Source: a virus. From it: a DNA stretch of 64,000 bases. The notes below the pieces were generated by a model that saw only the letters and a list, made by a program, of their open reading frames with translations, did no database searches and had not been told where the DNA came from. Location of the stretch: positions 4,133 through 68,132 of IMG/VR virus record IMGVR_UViG_3300042463_000409; one strand, 5' to 3'. A program made the position numbers and the translations under genes. Positions 10,695 through 18,837 of this stretch are shown here, one piece after another (within the stretch, counting starts at the first letter, position 1; every line of letters begins with the position of its first letter).

Positions 10695-12512
10695 TTAAAA
10701 CTTACATTTATGTTTTAGTAATAAATAATCCCTATTAAAAGGAAGCATTCCGTTTTCATCTACAAATTCAACTCCATTATTCATTCTTAATATGCATGGG
10801 TTTCCTTGTGTTGTCGGCTTGCCACCCGTCTCTTTATTTCTAACTTTATCAACAGAAATCTCTGTTACCATCCATTCGTATTGGTCTTTGATTTTCCTAT
10901 GATAAGTCACAAAGTTATCAACCCTATTGTAAAGTGCAGCACCCCCTTCGGTATCTGATGCGTGAGGCATCTTTTGGTTGCCATCTTTATCTCTTTCTCT
11001 TTGAGAATTGGTTGTACTATGTACTGATAAAAATATAGAAGTGTTGTATCTTTTTGTATAGTTGAGCATCTCGCTATATGCCTCGTAGTCGTATATGTAT
11101 TTATTCTTTGCTGCTGTCAACTCCATCTTCAAAGAATTATACGGATCAATAAACAGCCCCTTCAAAGACTTATAGTTCATAAGCACTTTAGAGTGGTCTA
11201 ATATCTCTCCGTATGTGTACATATTATCGGTAGATAGTATAAAGAAGTGCTCATCTACAAACTTTAATGAAGCTGCATGCTCTGAGTCGTTCATACTTGT
11301 AATCTTCTTGCCAACAAAGAACTCCATAATCTTCATCTTAACTGAAGCAGATTGATTCTCTCCTGTGTACAGCATCCAATTCCAATCATAATGCACAGCA
11401 GATAGGAAAATGAGCCACAAATTGACTGTTGTTTTACCAATATGGCTGTGTGCTAGGGACGCATAAAATTCGCCCTCTTTTAGCCTCAGATGGTCATCTA
11501 AATGCTTATACCCAAAAGGCATACCCATAGGTATGAGGCCAGACCTAAACTTATAGATAAAATCATCGTCTTTGGACCTAGAAGAAAGAAAGGACAAGTC
11601 TTCCTCCATAACTCCAATTTCACGTACAGCTTCCCTGTACTCAGATTCAACCTCATGTATAGGCCTGGTCATACCATGACGCAATCCGTCTTCTATGGTT
11701 CTCTTGGCTAGTTGGATGTCGTCTACATCTTTCTTAGAAATCTCGTGAGCAAGAATATCGTAAGCAATATCATATTCTATGTATTTAGTTGCAACATATC
11801 CGCCTAATAATGTAGCTGCCCTAAGTAACGTATGATGCTTTTGTCCATCAGGTGCTAGCCTAATCATTCTAGAGGCTACATCAATTTTTTTATAATCCGT
11901 AAACCCATCTCCCATTTTAACCGAAGATGGCTTTATCTCTTCGTCCTGAACAATATCAAAAAACACACTAGAAGATGTGTTAACGTATATCTCAGGATCA
12001 TAAGATACGTACAATACCCTAGCTATGTTTTTAGCTGTTGGGTCTAAGCCAGGTATCTTTTCTAGTAGAGCTTTGTAGTGCTGCGTATGCTTATTTCCGT
12101 CTCCAATCTTAACTAGACCATGAAGACCTCTACCACTAGAAGAAATCCATAAGGCATATATAAATGGATTATTAATTAATTCTTGCTTTGCCTCATTAAC
12201 ATCTTCGATATCATCAATATCTATTGGCACAAATCCGCTATGCTTTGTCAGAGATTTGTCATCTCTGTAAGACACATACTCTGTTCCGTTGTCTCTTGTT
12301 TTAGTTATAGGCTTATTAAATTCTCCTGAAAATAAAACGCATGGCAGTCCTGACTTTAACTCTCTAATTTTGTTCTCGTCTTTACATTGCCTTATCTCGC
12401 TTACTTTCTCTTTGTATTTGCCTGTTTCTATTCCTTTCAATACCGAACCCAATTCGACAAAGTGGGGCTCATGTATTGTAGTAATGTTTCTAAATAAGGT
12501 TACTCTCTGCAT
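10695..12512 (-). CDS. Primase-helicase (VirE/BT4734-like N-domain + DnaB-like SF4 helicase)
   Basis: KSGLPCVLFSG, DIDD, SSSGRGLHG primase-like motifs; HSHIGKTT Walker A; FIDPYN; KVRNKETGG. Confidence 0.82.
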   Translation of the reverse strand: MQRVTLFRNITTIHEPHFVELGSVLKGIETGKYKEKVSEIRQCKDENKIRELKSGLPCVLFSGEFNKPITKTRDNGTEYVSYRDDKSLTKHSGFVPIDIDDIEDVNEAKQELINNPFIYALWISSSGRGLHGLVKIGDGNKHTQHYKALLEKIPGLDPTAKNIARVLYVSYDPEIYVNTSSSVFFDIVQDEEIKPSSVKMGDGFTDYKKIDVASRMIRLAPDGQKHHTLLRAATLLGGYVATKYIEYDIAYDILAHEISKKDVDDIQLAKRTIEDGLRHGMTRPIHEVESEYREAVREIGVMEEDLSFLSSRSKDDDFIYKFRSGLIPMGMPFGYKHLDDHLRLKEGEFYASLAHSHIGKTTVNLWLIFLSAVHYDWNWMLYTGENQSASVKMKIMEFFVGKKITSMNDSEHAASLKFVDEHFFILSTDNMYTYGEILDHSKVLMNYKSLKGLFIDPYNSLKMELTAAKNKYIYDYEAYSEMLNYTKRYNTSIFLSVHSTTNSQRERDKDGNQKMPHASDTEGGAALYNRVDNFVTYHRKIKDQYEWMVTEISVDKVRNKETGGKPTTQGNPCILRMNNGVEFVDENGMLPFNRDYLLLKHKCKF

Positions 12513-13737: not shown

Positions 13738-14496
13738 TTATTTTACCCAATATGGCAAAGATATTTCAAAGTCTCCACCTGAATGGAACTCGTATCCCAT
13801 ATCCCAAAGGTTGTTTTGCATACACGAATTAAATAGCATTGCTAATTCAGATACCGTCTTTTTACCTAGGTCAATATACTCTTGACTAGCTTCTGCAACA
13901 ACAATATTGTATGGAGATTTAGTTTCAACGATTAGGTATTTTATAGGTTTATTAGTAACCATATTGTATATGGCAGCTTGTATGTGGTAGCCTCGGTCAT
14001 AGAAATTATTGATGATAGTTTTTGGATGTGCGTCCGAAGCTGTCTTTACTTCTAAAACATATTTATCAGATTCTCCATCTATAAATCCTCTGAATGGAAG
14101 TCCGTGCATCTCTGCCCTGAATTCATTTTCAAATATATTACAATCTGATACCAACTTTTTAAAATGGTCTTGCATCATTATCTTATCTACAAGTCTATTG
14201 GCATCTTCAAACTCAGACTCTTGCACAACGGTCTTACCTTCTGCTTCACTCATAAACTTTGCGTAAGTAGCTTTACCTTCTGTTGTTCTTCTGTCTACGT
14301 TTGGCATCACGGCAAACTGAGAATTAAATTCTTTGGGCTGTAGTAGTAAGCAGTGCAGCATGCTGCCAAATATCATTTCTTTACTAGGCTCTTTGTCTCC
14401 ATTTAGGTATGCAATGTAGTGTGCAGGACTCTTAGCAAACTCTTTTAGTGAAGAGTAGCTTAATGGCCTTTGTTGTAACGTTTCTAATGTTATCAT
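13738..14496 (-). CDS. RecE/exonuclease VIII-like PD-(D/E)XK exonuclease (DUF3799-like)
   Basis: LSYSSLK, FGSMLH, RGFID, EVKT, YHIQAAIY. Confidence 0.85.
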   Translation of the reverse strand: MITLETLQQRPLSYSSLKEFAKSPAHYIAYLNGDKEPSKEMIFGSMLHCLLLQPKEFNSQFAVMPNVDRRTTEGKATYAKFMSEAEGKTVVQESEFEDANRLVDKIMMQDHFKKLVSDCNIFENEFRAEMHGLPFRGFIDGESDKYVLEVKTASDAHPKTIINNFYDRGYHIQAAIYNMVTNKPIKYLIVETKSPYNIVVAEASQEYIDLGKKTVSELAMLFNSCMQNNLWDMGYEFHSGGDFEISLPYWVK

Positions 14497-14772: not shown

Positions 14773-15318
14773 TTATCCATTTTTAATTTTATTTAATTCA
14801 GCTTCAACAGCTTTTGATATGTTATAGAATTGTCTAAGTTTAGCTACATCTAGATTATTTGATTCAGCTCTTTTAACAATAGCACTCCAATCCTTGTGCT
14901 TATCTGTTAGCCATTCTTTCTGAGGAGCCGCTGTATCTCTTGACATAGCCTTCTCTCCATCATCATCTTCGTCTTCAATAACTAGGTTTAATAATCCTGA
15001 TAAGCTATATCTTTTAGCATAAGTTACAGCACTACCATAGTCTTGTGCGGTCTGCTTTTGAACTACGATAGGAAAGTATGATACCATCAATTCTCCTGTC
15101 TCTACATGATATAGATTAGTTTGAACATAAGGAGCTCCGTCTAATACAATAGTTGGTTGTGATATCACTAATCCATTGCGACTTAAGTGAGGGGCTATGT
15201 GTTGCTGAATAGCATCTAATTGCGCATACTTTGATTTAAAGAATGGGTTGTTAGATGACTTTGTAATTGGTTCGCATTGTGATTGAAATAGTGACAATGC
15301 TTTTAATAAATTCTGCAT
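14773..15318 (-). CDS. erf: ERF-family single-strand annealing protein
   Basis: NPFFKSKYA, QDYGSAVTYAKRYSL, EDDDG signature. Confidence 0.9.
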   Translation of the reverse strand: MQNLLKALSLFQSQCEPITKSSNNPFFKSKYAQLDAIQQHIAPHLSRNGLVISQPTIVLDGAPYVQTNLYHVETGELMVSYFPIVVQKQTAQDYGSAVTYAKRYSLSGLLNLVIEDEDDDGEKAMSRDTAAPQKEWLTDKHKDWSAIVKRAESNNLDVAKLRQFYNISKAVEAELNKIKNG

Positions 15319-15337
15319 TTTATTGTTATTTAGTTCG

Positions 15338-15420
15338 TAGTCAGTGTAGGATTCGAACCTACATTTAGGAGACTGATGTATTTAATCTCAGTTTTCGTCT
15401 ACCATAACGACTTCCTGACT
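15338..15420 (-). ncRNA. tRNA-like RNA with aberrant anticodon arm
   Basis: AGTCAG/CTGACT acceptor; GTC/GAC D-stem with TGGTA; ACTGA/TCAGT stem with 11-nt loop; GTAGG-TTCGAAT-CCTAC T-arm. Confidence 0.65.
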
Positions 15421-15581
15421 ATATCGGTTGTTCTGGCACAACCATAAGCCCCTTTGTTTTCTTTATGCGTATGAACAAATGCTGCTACTATAACACACTT
15501 GGCAAGAAAACTATGTCTAACCCAACCGCAAGGCATCGGTACTAGGGCTTTCTAAACTATAGTAGCATTTATTACTTATTG

Positions 15582-15589
15582 CAAAACTA
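15582..15589 (-). promoter_or_regulatory. -7 promoter element upstream of hairpin/tRNA-like/erf
   Basis: Minus strand TAGTTTTG. Confidence 0.5.
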
Positions 15590-15593
15590 CAAA

Positions 15594-15743
15594 CTATTTA
15601 AATAATATTCTAAATAATTTTTTGAATTCTGCTATTATATCGTATATCACACCTGAGTATATTAATCCCCATACCCATACTAAATATGGAATGAAGAATG
15701 TAAATATAAATATCAGTGCTCTCTCTTTTTTATCTTTTACCAT
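15594..15743 (-). CDS. Small membrane protein
   Basis: MVKDKKERALIFIFTFFIPYLVWVWGLIYSG...; start uncertain (track extends it to 15857). Confidence 0.4.
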   Translation of the reverse strand: MVKDKKERALIFIFTFFIPYLVWVWGLIYSGVIYDIIAEFKKLFRILFK

Positions 15744-16077
15744 AACTATATGTATATCAGGTTCTATATCCAAGTAAAAAGTTACCTGAACAGTCCTCCA
15801 CTTTATTTCAACTCGTGGATTCATAGCTCTACTACACACCCGAATATCTAACGGCACATTAGTTTTTTACTTTGTTTACTTGTCGGCAGTTGTCAACCTG
15901 TAAGACATGGCTACCACTTTGTACTAATATGTATATCTCCGCATGTGCAAAAAGTTAAGCACCATAGGTGCTACGAAAAACACACACGTTAAGTGTAAAG
16001 AACAGCAAATTTTTATTTGAACTATCGTTGTATAGAACAAGGCTAAAATGTGTTAAAACCTTACCGAATGGGGTATG

Positions 16078-16183
16078 AAAGAAAAAGCCCACCAAAGTAG
16101 AGATTTGATGGGCATGATTCAAAAAGGTGTTAGCCTTCTAAAAGCACACCCGATAACGTATCTCTACTACCTTATCGGATTTG
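16078..16183 (-). ncRNA. Kissing-loop small RNA / attenuator
   Basis: Two hairpins with complementary 7-nt loops GTAGAGA and TCTCTAC; second hairpin followed by TTTTTCTTT; consensus promoter directly upstream. Confidence 0.65.
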
Positions 16184-16188
16184 CAGTA

Positions 16189-16219
16189 CAAAAATACAAA
16201 TGTTTTTTATACCACCAAA
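16189..16219 (-). promoter_or_regulatory. Full Bacteroidota promoter (-33 TTTG, -7 TATTTTTG)
   Basis: TTTG-19 nt-TATTTTTG on the minus strand. Confidence 0.7.
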
Positions 16220-16226
16220 TATTTTT

Positions 16227-16421
16227 TTAATTTTTATTGTGTTCAGATATAGTTATTGTCAATGTCGCAAACAACAGGCCTAACTGAAAGGCTACAACAG
16301 GGGTTCCGCAGCACTCATATACTCCGTCAGATAAGCTAAACCCCAATAATATTGAACCATCATGTCCATCGATGAATGGGCTGTCAATAACAGCTTGTAC
16401 GTCGTTTTTAAATATTTTCAT
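16227..16421 (-). CDS. Hypothetical protein
   Basis: 64-aa ORF on the early strand. Confidence 0.5.
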   Translation of the reverse strand: MKIFKNDVQAVIDSPFIDGHDGSILLGFSLSDGVYECCGTPVVAFQLGLLFATLTITISEHNKN

Positions 16422-16426
16422 AGTTT

Positions 16427-16483
16427 GTAAAGTTATAGGTTTACTTTTATGTGGTTAAAGTAAAGTTATAGGTTGACTTTTAT
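16427..16483. repeat. Direct repeat of a 24-bp quasi-palindromic box
   Basis: GTAAAGTTATAGGTT(T/G)ACTTTTAT at 16427-16450 and 16460-16483. Confidence 0.7.
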
Positions 16484-16608
16484 TCTTGCCTATTCCTTTC
16501 ATCCTCTTCTATTTTTCTCTTGCTATAATCTATGAGGTATACCCATAGGATAGATACGGGAATAGCAAATAAAAAGGATATTAAGAACCCTTCAAATTGT
16601 ATATTCAT
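16480..16608 (-). CDS. Small membrane peptide (42 aa)
   Basis: MNIQFEGFLISFLFAIPVSILWVYLIDYSKRKIEEDERNRQE; a 28-aa TM ORF (16605-16691) is coupled upstream. Confidence 0.45.
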   Translation of the reverse strand: MNIQFEGFLISFLFAIPVSILWVYLIDYSKRKIEEDERNRQE

Positions 16609-16694
16609 AGTTTCTTTATTTGTTTATATATAGATATACATCCTAGGATAGATACTATTCCTACAAGTATCATAAATAATAATGCTAACATAAT

Positions 16695-16919
16695 TTATAG
16701 TTTTTCTATTTCTTGTTTAACTTCTTTCCACCAATTCTTTTCTATGCAGTTATCGTCTTTGTCAAAGGCAATAGGGTTAGAAGAAATTATTTCGTCTACT
16801 GCTATTAATGCACACTGTACAGCTTTTTTTAATATATATGAGTGCTCAAACCCCATTTTTAGGGTTACTATTGGCTTGTATTTCTTTATTAACTCATCAC
16901 ATTTTTCTTTTGGTGTCAT
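16695..16919 (-). CDS. Phage hypothetical protein
   Basis: MTPKEK...QCALIAVDEII...WKEVKQEIEKL pattern typical of Bacteroidota phage early genes. Confidence 0.65.
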   Translation of the reverse strand: MTPKEKCDELIKKYKPIVTLKMGFEHSYILKKAVQCALIAVDEIISSNPIAFDKDDNCIEKNWWKEVKQEIEKL

Positions 16920-16922
16920 AGG

Positions 16923-17135
16923 TTATTTGTTTTGGTTATAGGTTTGGTTGTAGTATTCTTCTCCTTCTTCTCTATATCCATATACTCCATCTATATTACC
17001 ATAGTAAGCATCTATTATCTGCTCTTTTTCTTTTTCAAGTTTAGATTCTGCTCTTTTTATTATACCATGTACAATAGAGTCATATGATTCAATGCTTTTT
17101 AATTCACTAATCAATTGTTGTAATACTGTTTGCAT
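16923..17135 (-). CDS. Phage hypothetical protein
   Basis: EKEQIIDAY...EYYNQTY; similar to 17585-17824. Confidence 0.65.
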   Translation of the reverse strand: MQTVLQQLISELKSIESYDSIVHGIIKRAESKLEKEKEQIIDAYYGNIDGVYGYREEGEEYYNQTYNQNK

Positions 17136-17829: not shown

Positions 17830-18837
17830 TTATATATTTTGTTTAGTAAATAAATCTATCGCCTTGAATATATTGTATGCTACCTGTGGTACAATAGCAT
17901 TCCCGTAAGCCTTTATTGATTCCATTCTCCACTTAGAAAAGGTAATAGAGTCCAATTCTCTGGGAAGCCCATCATCTCCTCCACAAATAGGGGGTTTAGT
18001 TGGGAAGTCTTGGAACTTGGCTCGTATATTTTCGCTATCTCGTCCGTTAAGTTGAATTTGCCTCTGTCTCTCGATGCGTTGCCTCTCGATTCTTGCGCCT
18101 TCGGTGTCGGTAACATACCTAGCTTCGCCATTTGCTTCAATGGGTTCTGCAAGTTGACCCCCTTTGCTTTGTGACGAGCTTTTGCTGCTAGGAATGTCTC
18201 CTCCTTGCGAGCCGTGTTCCAGTCGTATGCCGAAGGTGTCGGTAGTAATGATACTACTTGAGTAGCTAGGTTTGGCATCGTCGTTCCGTTGGGATACTTC
18301 TCCATCCTGTCCTTGAACTTGCCTAGATCCTGTACCTCTTCTCTTGTCGTTGGAGTAAGCAACAAACCAAACTCTGTCCCTTCTGTGCGGGGCGTTGACG
18401 CTTGCAGCTGGAATAATAAACGGTTGTACTTCATATCCTTGGCTTTCCAAGTCAGAGCACACCTCATGGAAGACCAATCCTCCATTCCAACTAACAAGCC
18501 CACGAACGTTTTCGCCCACGACGAATGTTGGTTGGACCTCTTTAATAACTCGTAGCATTTCAGGAAAGAGGTGTCTTTCATCGGCCTTACCAAGACGCTT
18601 TCCTGCGACTGAGTATGGTTGACAGGGGAATCCTCCTGTAAGTACATCAATTGTTCCTCTGTGAATAGAGAAATCTGTTTCGGTAATGTCATTGTATGAT
18701 ATTGATTTTGGAAAATGATATTTTAATACTCGCTGACCAAACGGATTCCATTCGCAGTGGAATACATTATCCCATCCCATCCATTGTGCAGCTACATCAA
18801 ATCCACCTATGCCAGAAAACAAACTAGCGTGATTCAT
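17830..18837 (-). CDS. DNA (cytosine-5) methyltransferase, large/alpha polypeptide
   Basis: Motif I LFSGIGG, IV GGFPCQ, VI GENV, VIII HRRDRVW, X YGNAIVP; motif IX absent from this frame. Confidence 0.9.
   Translation of the reverse strand: MNHASLFSGIGGFDVAAQWMGWDNVFHCEWNPFGQRVLKYHFPKSISYNDITETDFSIHRGTIDVLTGGFPCQPYSVAGKRLGKADERHLFPEMLRVIKEVQPTFVVGENVRGLVSWNGGLVFHEVCSDLESQGYEVQPFIIPAASVNAPHRRDRVWFVAYSNDKRRGTGSRQVQGQDGEVSQRNDDAKPSYSSSIITTDTFGIRLEHGSQGGDIPSSKSSSQSKGGQLAEPIEANGEARYVTDTEGARIERQRIERQRQIQLNGRDSENIRAKFQDFPTKPPICGGDDGLPRELDSITFSKWRMESIKAYGNAIVPQVAYNIFKAIDLFTKQNI
17913..18692 (-). CDS. Nested alternative-frame ORF: C5-MTase small/beta polypeptide (TRD-like repeats + motif IX)
   Basis: 259-aa open frame inside the MTase gene; three LL/ML-(P)TP repeats; QLNPLFVEEMMGFPENWT matches motif IX; true start uncertain. 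Confidence 0.7.
   Translation of the reverse strand: MTLPKQISLFTEEQLMYLQEDSPVNHTQSQESVLVRPMKDTSFLKCYELLKRSNQHSSWAKTFVGLLVGMEDWSSMRCALTWKAKDMKYNRLLFQLQASTPRTEGTEFGLLLTPTTREEVQDLGKFKDRMEKYPNGTTMPNLATQVVSLLPTPSAYDWNTARKEETFLAAKARHKAKGVNLQNPLKQMAKLGMLPTPKAQESRGNASRDRGKFNLTDEIAKIYEPSSKTSQLNPLFVEEMMGFPENWTLLPFLSGEWNQ

What the first reader, a model, noticed from the sequence alone, without database searches (positions are those of the whole stretch)
16078..16219. Self-contained ~105-nt RNA with complementary hairpin loops (kissing loop)
Seen on the minus strand: consensus -33/-7 promoter, hairpin CCGATAAGGTA-GTAGAGA-TACGTTATCGG, a 36-nt spacer, then terminator GCCCATCAAA-TCTCTAC-TTTGGTGGGC-TTTTTCTTT. 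The two 7-nt loops are exact complements, and a G-U pair supports the minus strand. Inference: an sRNA or attenuator in which loop-loop pairing controls read-through into the ~230-nt non-coding stretch and the recombination/replication genes downstream.
Basis: partly seen in the sequence, partly recalled or inferred. Interest (0 to 1): 0.7.

Follow-up and report, generated by a model that had tools for sequence, protein, structure and literature searches.

The report
Phage leader RNA with kissing loops
A lake-water phage carries a small RNA whose two hairpin loops are made to pair with each other, in at least 18 different lock-and-key versions among its relatives, and it always sits directly in front of a much larger folded RNA of unknown function.

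Summary
On the minus strand, 16219-16078 holds a Bacteroidota-type promoter, a 5' hairpin (HP1), a small middle hairpin and a terminator hairpin (HP2) with a U-run. The predicted RNA is about 105 nt. No Rfam family, tRNA or conserved ORF covers it.

I found the same unit in about 40 phage and metagenome contigs. Across 29 distinct aligned sequences, all 7 loop-loop pairs change on both sides and 95.5% of cells stay paired. There are 18 different fully complementary loop pairs and 2 imperfect ones. Invariant U-G pairs fix the strand.

Between near-identical phages the RNA is a local hotspot of change.

The unit is always followed by such a cargo RNA (type A or an unrelated type B), with no promoter between them. 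It also occurs in structural-gene modules, so it is not tied to the recombination genes.

Best reading (mechanism about 0.4): a specificity-coded leader/attenuator that gates transcription into the cargo RNA. It appears to be a new RNA family.

The parts
16216..16219 (-). -33 box TTTG of a Bacteroidota sigma-ABfr-type promoter
   Evidence: Read directly. An exact TTTG-N18-21-TAnnTTTG is found in 27 of 30 related units at the same distance. The consensus is as quoted in PMC7366714 (passage).
16189..16196 (-). -7 box TATTTTTG (TAnnTTTG)
   Evidence: The box ends 3-5 nt before the first conserved base of the RNA in the 27 units with an exact promoter match.
16078..16184 (-). Predicted ~105-nt KL RNA, from the inferred start (G 16184) to the end of the U-run
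   Evidence: Covariance model hit 16079-16184, 122-131 bits. The fold has z = -4.9. The start and end are inferred from the promoter and terminator, not measured.
16150..16178 (-). HP1: an 11-pair stem with a G.G mismatch. It extends outward by A-U and U.G pairs (16180-16148) and a GCA/UGC helix (16184-16182 with 16146-16144).
   Evidence: Helix 1 has 96.3% of cells paired and 6 pairs with double changes. The U.G at the base is invariant in 29 of 29.
16161..16167 (-). Loop 1, GUAGAGA
   Evidence: Pairs with loop 2. All 7 positions covary.
16122..16139 (-). Middle hairpin AGAAGG/CCUUUU
   Evidence: The helix is kept with different sequences (AAGAA/UUCUU, AAGAG/CUCUU). Helix 3 has 6 of 6 pairs with double changes but only 80% of cells paired, because the linker aligns poorly.
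16087..16113 (-). HP2: intrinsic-terminator hairpin with a 10-pair stem
   Evidence: 99.7% of cells paired, 5 pairs with double changes, and an invariant U.G (29 of 29).
16097..16103 (-). Loop 2, UCUCUAC
   Evidence: Exact complement of loop 1. Covaries with it.
16078..16086 (-). U-run UUUUUCUUU
   Evidence: A run of at least 5 U follows HP2 in 29 of 30 units.
15759..16061 (-). 'Type A' cargo: a large structured non-coding RNA closed by a long-range helix (AGGUU..UUA with UAUAGAACCU). The conserved block is 16087-15741.
   Evidence: nhmmer match 16087-15741. RNAalifold predicts 57 pairs, 29 with compensatory changes. 94.3% of cells are paired against 80.9% in shuffles (0 of 500) and 33-46% when slid. 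No Rfam match.

Best explanation
The element is a real RNA module, which I call the KL module, transcribed from the minus strand.

Anatomy. A Bacteroidota-type promoter drives a ~105-nt RNA made of a 5' hairpin (HP1), a small middle hairpin and an intrinsic-terminator hairpin (HP2) with a U-run. The 7-nt loops of HP1 and HP2 base-pair with each other as a 7-bp loop-loop (kissing) helix.

Setting. The module is the invariant 5' part of a two-part, self-contained phage non-coding locus. It is always followed directly, with no promoter in between, by a large structured 'cargo' RNA. In this window the cargo is type A (16061-15759). In other phages it is an unrelated type B.

Most likely way of working (inferred). 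The module acts as a leader/attenuator.
1. RNA polymerase starts at the KL promoter.
2. It either stops at HP2, releasing the free 105-nt RNA, or runs on into the cargo RNA.
3. The loop-loop contact sets that choice. The contact forms either within the nascent chain or with free KL RNA carrying the same loop sequence.
4. The loop sequence therefore acts as a specificity label. It differs between otherwise near-identical phages, so co-infecting relatives do not cross-talk.

Shown: the RNA, its strand, the three hairpins, loop-loop pairing under selection, the constant coupling to a cargo RNA, and the local hypervariability.

Inferred: termination versus read-through, any effect of the kissing on it, and any action in trans.
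For: Structure and strand:
- The fold has z = -4.9 on the minus strand against -2.1 on the plus strand.
- In 29 distinct sequences, 95.1% of cells are paired against 80.6% in shuffles (0 of 500) and 38-48% when slid.
- U.G pairs are invariant in 29 of 29 in both stems, which would be A-C mismatches on the other strand.

Loop-loop pairing:
- 7 of 7 pairs change on both sides, in 6-15 sequences each, and 95.5% of cells are paired. The covariance model did not contain these pairs.
- There are 18 distinct fully complementary loop pairs.
- For the 17 types in the in-register matrix, cognate pairs give 7 of 7 Watson-Crick pairs in 16; type 2 pairs one register off. Non-cognate pairs average 2.86 of 7.
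- The loops have no other consistent partner within +-3 kb or in the type A cargo.

Transcription unit:
- The promoter is exact in 27 of 30 units at a fixed distance, and a U-run follows HP2 in 29 of 30.

Coupling to cargo:
- 19 of 19 KL loci printed with downstream sequence carry type A or B.
- 18 of 18 loci found with a type-A-only pattern have a KL unit upstream.
- 10 of 10 loci found with a type-B-only pattern have a KL unit upstream.
- No -33/-7 promoter lies between HP2 and the cargo, by reading the sequences.
- There is one unit per genome in 6 of 6 records of 61-68 kb.

Hypervariability:
- L184 vs L193: 896 of 900 identical downstream, but 78 of 94 in the RNA.
- L183 vs L193: 981 of 1000 upstream, 87 of 94 in the RNA.
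- L005 vs L008: 339 of 342 upstream, 87 of 98 in the RNA.

Weak hint of expression: a metatranscriptome run holds a 735-nt contig, mean depth 161, of an L155-like relative. It spans the KL unit and runs on into type A.
Against: - No data on RNA ends. The only RNA evidence is an assembled contig, which may contain DNA and cannot show starts, ends or strand.
- A kissing complex is compatible with a fully formed terminator hairpin. It is therefore not obvious how the loop contact would change termination, and I found no conserved alternative (antiterminator) pairing by reading the alignments.
- Geometry. The linker between the hairpins can be as short as 28 nt including a 5-bp hairpin. My rough estimate, which is not a computation, is that a straight stem-kiss-stem stack of about 28 bp (~78 A) would be only just spanned. 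This favours pairing between molecules.
- If the cargo must be made, a strong terminator in front of it is unexpected.
- Two natural sequences have imperfect loops. L167 has 3 Watson-Crick and 2 G-U pairs with 1 mismatch. L192 has 5 of 7. Perfect pairing is therefore not absolutely required, or these contigs are recombinants or assembly chimeras.
- The hotspot pattern could reflect exchange of whole KL cassettes by recombination rather than selection for new specificities.
Confidence: 0.4

Rival explanations
Loop 1 of one RNA pairs with loop 2 of another, and vice versa. KL RNAs, or KL-cargo RNAs, then form closed dimers, rings or larger RNA-only assemblies. The loop sequence is an address that keeps the RNAs of different co-infecting phages apart. 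The terminator is incidental or merely produces two isoforms.
For: - One RNA carries both a loop and its complement, as phi29 pRNA does (PMC2582624, passages).
- Phage-borne large RNAs (ROOL, GOLLD) assemble through intermolecular kissing loops that were first seen only as covariation (PMC12286853, passages).
- The KL unit is always joined to a large structured RNA.
- Short linkers (28-35 nt including a hairpin) suit a side-by-side dimer better than an intramolecular straight stack. This is my own estimate.
- Allelic diversity with conserved stems is what a self-recognition code would look like.
Against: - It does not explain why a canonical U-run follows HP2 in 29 of 30 units.
- There is no biophysical evidence.
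- Some alleles differ by a single pair (GUGGAAU, GGGGAAU, GCGGAAU), and 11 of 272 non-cognate combinations still have 6 of 7 pairs. Discrimination would therefore be imperfect.
- Nothing excludes the intramolecular form.
Confidence: 0.3
2. A stand-alone small RNA whose loop-loop contact is only an intramolecular clamp. The clamp would give a compact, nuclease-resistant fold or a platform for a protein. Loop variation would be neutral compensatory drift plus recombination, and the neighbouring cargo RNA would be a separate gene that happens to be linked.
For: - Own promoter and strong terminator.
- The stems are highly conserved in sequence, with invariant U.G pairs and a conserved irregularity three pairs below loop 1. 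This suggests recognition by a protein or another RNA.
- The loops have no other partner nearby.
Against: - Neutral drift should be slower than in flanking DNA, because each change needs a second, compensating one. Here the RNA diverges far faster than its flanks.
- The invariable coupling to a cargo RNA with no promoter of its own, in 28 of 28 cargo-first searches, argues against mere linkage.
Confidence: 0.15
3. One reading: an attenuator that controls expression of the downstream recombination/replication genes (ERF annealing protein, PD-(D/E)XK exonuclease, primase-helicase).
For: In the window and in 14 of 25 loci examined, an ERF gene follows on the same strand 0.4-2.6 kb downstream. The exonuclease comes after it.
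Against: - In L155-type phages the unit lies between the major head protein and the head-tail adaptor. In L173 it follows the large terminase subunit. In L185 it precedes a DNA methyltransferase.
- A 300-nt structured RNA always intervenes, and often other small ORFs or an HNH gene as well.
Confidence: 0.1
4. A DNA-level element: inverted binding sites for a dimeric protein, or single-strand DNA hairpins of an origin. Under this reading it is not an RNA.
For: - Inverted repeats that covary would also arise if two half-sites were read by one protein.
- In the window the unit lies near replication genes.
Against: - Wobble pairs, invariant or arising by substitution, are valid on one strand only (U.G 29 of 29 at two positions; A-U to G-U changes).
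- The promoter and the terminator U-run are conserved at fixed distances.
- The complementary 7-mers sit exactly in hairpin loops.
- The unit also occurs in structural-gene modules.
Confidence: 0.03

Closest known systems
phi29-family packaging RNA (pRNA)
   Same: - A phage-encoded RNA of about 120 nt that carries two loops complementary to each other.
- The loop sequences can be exchanged as long as complementarity is kept, and they decide which molecules interlock (PMC2582624, passages).
   Different: - pRNA loops pair over 4 nt. Here the pairing is 7 nt.
- pRNA has a three-way junction and paired 5'/3' ends and works on the portal of protein-primed phi29-like phages (recalled).
- This RNA ends in a terminator, precedes a large cargo RNA, and sits in a 68-kb terminase-packaging phage with terminal repeats.
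- No Rfam pRNA match.
Kissing-loop copy-number and incompatibility RNAs of plasmids (ColE1 RNA I/RNA II; countertranscript-driven attenuation in pT181/pIP501). Recalled, not read here.
   Same: - 7-nt loops that pair completely.
- Loop sequence as a specificity (incompatibility) determinant that can change by single compensated substitutions.
- In the attenuation systems, a loop-loop contact decides whether a leader terminator forms.
   Different: - In the plasmid systems the two partners are antisense transcripts of the same DNA, so complementarity is automatic.
- Here both loops lie on the same strand of one RNA, 57 nt apart, and must co-evolve.
- Here there is no replication-gene leader, and the downstream product is a non-coding RNA.
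Immunity RNAs of phages P1/P7 (c4) and P4 (CI). Recalled, not read here.
   Same: - A small RNA and its complementary target boxes lie in the same transcript.
- Related phages differ by compensating changes that make them heteroimmune.
- In P4 the pairing causes premature termination.
   Different: - Those are processed from longer transcripts in temperate elements and act on mRNA leaders or ribosome-binding sites.
- No sign of lysogeny was seen among the window proteins I searched.
- No Rfam match.
ROOL, GOLLD and OLE large 'ornate' RNAs
   Same: - Large structured non-coding RNAs carried by phages, including lake-derived ones.
- Function unknown.
- They are held together by kissing loops between molecules that were first detected as covariation (PMC12286853, passages).
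   Different: - No sequence or structure match to any of them (Rfam gathering and E-value scans).
- The cargo here is ~300 nt, not 580-800 nt.
- A separate, terminator-bearing 5' module with hypervariable loops is not mentioned in the passages I read.

Membership tests
Intrinsic (Rho-independent) terminator | G+C-rich hairpin followed directly by a U-run | tested here: met
   10-pair stem with 5 G-C pairs, a 7-nt loop, and a TTTTTCTTT tail. A U-run of at least 5 is present in 29 of 30 relatives. Function as a terminator was not measured.
Bacteroidota sigma-ABfr promoter | TTTG near -33 and TAnnTTTG near -7 | tested here: met
   Window: TTTG, 19 nt, TATTTTTG. An exact match is present in 27 of 30 units at a fixed distance. 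Consensus from PMC7366714.
phi29 pRNA | Two mutually complementary loops on one RNA that covary among relatives | tested here: met
   7 of 7 loop pairs have double changes.
phi29 pRNA | Match to the Rfam pRNA model | tested here: not met
   No Rfam family reaches its gathering score in the window or in 12 related loci, where the only hit is a tRNA.
phi29 pRNA | [quoted passage not shown] | tested here: not met
   The RNA ends in a terminator. No 5'/3' closing helix appears in the fold.
phi29 pRNA | Host genome is a small protein-primed phi29-like phage | tested here: not met
   The record is 68 kb with direct terminal repeats and encodes a large terminase subunit.
Antisense kissing regulators (ColE1 RNA I type) | The partners are transcribed from opposite strands of the same DNA | tested here: not met
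   Both loops lie on the same strand, 57 nt apart. The U.G pairs exclude the other strand. The weak reverse-strand model hits of 25-36 bits are shadows of the hairpins.
P1 c4 / P4 CI immunity RNAs | Match to the family model | tested here: not met
   No Rfam match.
P1 c4 / P4 CI immunity RNAs | Complementary target boxes in the leader of an anti-repressor or early operon | tested here: not met
   The loop 7-mers have no further consistent copy within +-3 kb.
ROOL / GOLLD / OLE | Match to the family covariance model | tested here: not met
Transcription attenuator | Mutually exclusive terminator and antiterminator structures, or measured conditional read-through | not testable with these tools
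   I saw no conserved alternative pairing by reading the alignments. Read-through cannot be measured here.

The most novel reading that the evidence does not exclude
The loop pair is an allelic self-recognition code. Two consequences are possible. One is RNA-level kin discrimination or incompatibility between co-infecting phages, which would maintain many alleles by frequency-dependent selection. The other is allele-specific assembly of large RNA-only complexes. The KL module would then be a portable, programmable 'handle' that different phages attach to different cargo RNAs.
Probability: 0.3. Interest if true: 0.9.

Novelty: new variant of a known kind. Interest (0 to 1): 0.78.

Why it matters
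Loop-loop (kissing) contacts that carry specificity are known from plasmid copy-number RNAs, phi29 pRNA and, recently, the giant phage RNAs ROOL and GOLLD. This appears to be an undescribed family. No Rfam family matches and three literature searches found no description.

Three features make it useful:
- Both partners of a 7-bp kissing helix sit on one small RNA.
- They have diversified into at least 18 matched alleles while the stems stay constant.
- The module always precedes one of two unrelated large structured RNAs.

This gives a natural, ready-made allelic series, including two natural mismatched hybrids. With it one can test how loop identity controls termination, RNA assembly or cross-talk between co-infecting phages. 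It also adds two new large phage RNAs of unknown function (types A and B) from uncultured lake phages of Bacteroidota. If the loops act between molecules, this would be an RNA-based self/non-self label in lytic phages. It would also be a compact, orthogonal set of natural parts for RNA engineering.

Tried and rejected
Searches that found nothing:
- Rfam gathering scan of the whole window.
- Rfam E-value scan of 15300-16300. The best hits there are a sub-threshold tRNA-like match and noise.
- Rfam gathering scan of 12 related loci. Only a tRNA in L185.
- ARAGORN on the window.
- blastn of 15500-17000 against 50,697 phage records: no match.
- Two scans of 185,579 species genomes, one with the KL pattern and one with the type A pattern: 0 hits each. 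No prophage or host was found.

Related loci that lack the unit:
- The ERF-based neighbour search gave 80 loci. Of the 75 that are not contigs already found by the pattern scans (L014-L088), only L014 holds the RNA.

Chance pattern matches, dropped from all counts:
- L002.
- L189 and L197.
- About 70 unrelated terminators. Many belong to one abundant gene-end family.

Ideas tested and rejected:
- The GUAGUAGAG copy at 15835-15827, which resembles loop 1, is a target or mimic. Rejected: it lies in a conserved stem of type A and does not change when the loops change.
- The loops pair with the cargo. Rejected: no type A column is complementary to the loops in more than 4 of 9 sequences.
- A protein-coding reading of the 51-aa plus-strand ORF 16075-16230. 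Rejected: unit lengths range from 97 to 136 nt, not in steps of three. No frame is open across the family. 20 of 30 units have stops in all six frames, and the other 10 are open in differing frames.
- A link to tRNA islands, as for ROOL and GOLLD. Only 3 of 30 loci have an ARAGORN tRNA, and one further locus (L185) has one by Rfam only.

Steps that did not work well:
- The type B alignment was too poor for RNAalifold: 16 pairs, 1 compensatory. Its structure rests on helices I read by eye.
- The sigma-70 promoter scan does not apply to Bacteroidota promoters.

Read data:
- The read-laying result shows only assembled contigs. It cannot show RNA ends, strand or level.
- The parts of the stretch without cover in the RNA runs say nothing.

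- Supplementary files of papers were not consulted. Supplementary tables of PMC12286853 may list further kissing-loop covariation that I did not see.
Full report
WHERE THE WINDOW COMES FROM. The window is bases 4133-68132 of a 68,132-base virus record with direct terminal repeats. Genes on the minus strand from about 8.5 to 27.8 kb include:
- a C5 DNA methyltransferase (17830-18837);
- an ERF-type annealing protein (14773-15318);
- a PD-(D/E)XK exonuclease (13738-14496);
- a primase/helicase (10695-12512).

The plus-strand block from 28 kb holds the large terminase subunit and virion proteins. The stretch is held in lake-water metagenomes: 17 of the 24 listed runs hold at least half of its sampled words, and 4 of those may be the source. 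It has no relative among 50,697 phage records. The promoter type points to a Bacteroidota host. The consensus is TTTG at -33 and TAnnTTTG at -7, as quoted in PMC7366714 (passage read).

THE OBSERVATION.
- TTTG at 16219-16216, 19 nt, then TATTTTTG at 16196-16189;
- HP1 at 16178-16150, with loop GUAGAGA at 16167-16161;
- a 36-nt spacer;
- HP2 at 16113-16087, with loop UCUCUAC at 16103-16097;
- UUUUUCUUU.

The loops are exact complements. The terminator scan lists HP2. HP1 has an internal G.G mismatch. HP1 extends outward by A-U, U.G and a GCA/UGC helix. The spacer holds a third, 6-pair hairpin at 16139-16122. The minus strand folds to -40 kcal/mol (z = -4.9, 0 of 200 shuffles). The plus strand folds to -29 kcal/mol (z = -2.1, 7 of 200). 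No Rfam family and no tRNA cover it.

RELATIVES. Collection scans and a covariance model recovered the unit widely (for the scans; for the models; for the model searches). It is in 32 viral contigs, counting the window's own record, and in 15 of 17 metagenome hits. The other two, L189 and L197, are chance matches. Some metagenome contigs are the same records as viral ones. Each of 6 phage records of 61-68 kb holds exactly one unit. None was found in 185,579 species genomes with strict patterns.

THE LOOPS PAIR. I aligned 30 units to the model, 29 of them distinct. The model does not contain the loop-loop pairs. I then counted a structure that includes the loop-loop helix as a pseudoknot.
- Whole structure: 95.1% of cells paired, against 80.6% in shuffles (0 of 500) and 38-48% when partners are slid.
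- Loop-loop helix: all 7 pairs have changes on both sides, in 6 to 15 sequences each, and 95.5% of cells are paired.

By position I count 18 different fully complementary loop pairs. Examples are GUAGAGA/UCUCUAC (window), GUAAGAG/CUCUUAC, AGGAGAG/CUCUCCU, GUGGAAU/AUUCCAC, GGGGAAU/AUUCCCC, GCGGAAU/AUUCCGC, AUGUGUC/GACACAU, AUUGCGG/CCGCAAU and GAUGCAA/UUGCAUC. One type pairs one register off (AGGGAGAU/AUCUCCCU). One type has a 6-nt loop 2 (GGGGAU/AUCCCC). A very divergent unit (L203) has different stems but still GUAGAGA...UCUCUAC.

There are two exceptions. L167 carries loop 1 of one type and loop 2 of another, giving 3 Watson-Crick and 2 G-U pairs with 1 mismatch. L192 has 5 of 7 pairs. They may be recombinants or assembly chimeras.

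For the 17 types in the in-register matrix, 16 cognate pairs score 7 of 7. Non-cognate pairs average 2.86 of 7, and 11 of 272 reach 6.

THE STRAND. Two U.G pairs are invariant in 29 of 29 sequences, one at the base of HP1 and one in HP2. Several substitutions turn A-U into G-U. These would be mismatches on the other strand. The promoter is exact in 27 of 30 units and ends 3-5 nt before the conserved RNA start. A U-run follows HP2 in 29 of 30. No reading frame is conserved. The RNA reading and the strand are therefore secure.

WHAT LIES AROUND IT. The stretch after the terminator is not a spacer. In nine diverse loci it aligns as a conserved ~330-nt block with variable inserted hairpins.
- RNAalifold predicts 57 pairs, 29 with compensatory changes, closed by a long-range helix.
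- 94.3% of cells are paired, against 80.9% in shuffles (0 of 500) and 33-46% when slid. The caveat is that the structure was derived from the same alignment.
- In the window this 'type A' RNA spans about 16061-15759. The ORF listed at 15594-15857 overlaps it and is probably not real over that part.

Other phages carry in the same place an unrelated conserved non-coding block, 'type B'. It has a G-rich motif and helices that I could follow by eye, but the automatic alignment was too poor to support them.

The coupling between unit and cargo is complete in what I examined:
- 19 of 19 KL loci printed with downstream sequence have type A or B.
- A scan with a type-A-only pattern gave 18 loci, all 18 with a KL unit just upstream.
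- A scan with a type-B-only pattern gave 10 loci, all 10 with a KL unit.

I see no -33/-7 promoter between HP2 and the cargo. The cargo must therefore be transcribed through HP2.

GENE CONTEXT. In the window-like phages the unit lies between small early ORFs and the ERF/exonuclease genes. In L155-type phages it lies between the major head protein and the head-tail adaptor. In L173 it follows the large terminase subunit. In L185 it precedes a DNA methyltransferase. It is always co-directional with its neighbours. It behaves as a self-contained, movable unit of promoter, KL module and cargo RNA. It is not a regulator dedicated to recombination genes.

A HOTSPOT OF CHANGE. Between phages that are almost identical around it, the RNA differs sharply:
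- L184 vs L193: 896 of 900 identical downstream and 847 of 865 upstream, but 78 of 94 in the RNA.
- L183 vs L193: 981 of 1000 upstream, 87 of 94 in the RNA.
- L005 vs L008: 339 of 342 upstream, 87 of 98 in the RNA.

The same loop type also recurs on different backbones. For example, GUAAGAG occurs with three different linkers. This looks like a set of alleles exchanged and maintained in the population. It argues that loop identity matters beyond merely closing a fold. That is an inference.

HOW IT MOST LIKELY WORKS.

Shown: an RNA with three hairpins, selected loop-loop pairing, constant coupling to a cargo RNA, and allelic diversity.

Inferred, at about 0.4: the KL module is a leader/attenuator. 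Polymerase either stops at HP2, giving the free ~105-nt RNA, or reads on into the cargo. The loop contact, in cis or with free cognate KL RNA, sets the balance. The loop sequence keeps relatives from cross-talking.

Against this:
- A kissing complex is compatible with a formed terminator.
- I found no antiterminator.
- There are no end-mapping data.

This is what phi29 pRNA does (PMC2582624, passages), and it is also how ROOL and GOLLD assemble (PMC12286853, passages). Short linkers of 28-35 nt including a hairpin fit a side-by-side dimer better than a straight intramolecular stack, by my rough estimate. That rival leaves the conserved U-run unexplained.

A purely structural clamp (0.15), control of the ERF operon (0.1) and a DNA-level element (0.03) are less likely, for the reasons given under rivals.

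EXPRESSION. One metatranscriptome run holds a 735-nt contig with mean depth 161. It belongs to an L155-like relative, covers 16082-16211 of the window, and runs on into the start of type A on one side and an upstream terminator on the other. The other contigs laid from that run have depth 2-25. Contigs cannot show ends, strand or level, and DNA may be present, so this is only a weak hint.

COMPARISON AND NOVELTY. The principle, kissing loops that carry specificity, is known. The arrangement is not one I can find. Here both partners sit on one small terminator-bearing RNA. They have diversified into many matched alleles. They always lead into one of two unrelated large RNAs. No Rfam family matches. 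Three full-text searches returned no description. For those searches I saw only listings, apart from the three papers named above, of which I read passages.

VERDICT. This is a new RNA family whose function is open but directly testable.

Noticed in passing
window 15741-16087 (-): The 'non-coding stretch' is a large structured RNA (type A). It has a long-range closing helix and nine helices, and 29 of 57 pairs show compensatory changes. No Rfam match. Found only downstream of KL units.
   Followed up: yes
L183:5556-5859, L188:1937-2282, L014:2779-3082 and others: A second, unrelated conserved non-coding block (type B, with sub-forms) takes the place of type A after the KL unit. It has a G-rich motif (GGGGG-N-AGGGGG) in a hairpin tip and helices that seem to covary by eye. 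Automatic alignment did not support a consensus structure.
   Followed up: partly
window 15594-15743 (-): The listed ORF 15594-15857 overlaps the type A RNA. A shorter in-frame 49-aa ORF from the ATG at 15743 encodes a strongly hydrophobic peptide. Similar 35-50-aa hydrophobic ORFs follow the cargo RNA in L188, L194, L196, L191, L167 and L198 (read by eye). They are absent in L155, L174, L173 and L192. No Pfam hit.
   Followed up: partly
window 15338-15412 (-): A tRNA-like element with a perfect T-arm sits just upstream of the ERF gene. It scores 18.7 bits, below the Rfam threshold of 29, and ARAGORN does not call it. At the matching place in L004 and L008, ARAGORN calls an odd 83-nt 'tRNA-Phe (aaa)'.
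   Followed up: partly
L167:3774-3862 and L192:2208-2301: Two natural units whose loops do not match perfectly. L167 combines loop 1 of the L121 type with loop 2 of the L198 type. They may be recombinants or metagenome assembly chimeras.
   Followed up: partly
L014:2972-3466 (+); L193:1313-1684 (-): Free-standing endonuclease-like ORFs are inserted between the cargo RNA and the ERF gene. L014 matches Pfam HNH (22.2 bits, cut-off 21.4). L193 and L184 have cysteine and histidine motifs by eye but no Pfam hit.
   Followed up: partly
L090, L095, L097, L099 and about 40 more loci: A large unrelated family of contigs shares a conserved gene end followed by a terminator GCCCATCAGTA...TACTGGTGGGC. It matched my terminator pattern by chance of sequence, and it has no HP1 and no complementary upstream loop.
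   Followed up: no
window 16082-16211, run X18: A metatranscriptome contig of 735 nt, mean depth 161, from an L155-like relative spans the KL unit and continues into type A. The other contigs laid from that run have depth 2-25.
   Followed up: no
window 16227-16421 (-): A 64-aa ORF ends right at the -33 box of the KL promoter. It is conserved in that position in 11 of 25 loci examined (cluster c2). No PHROG or Pfam match.
   Followed up: no
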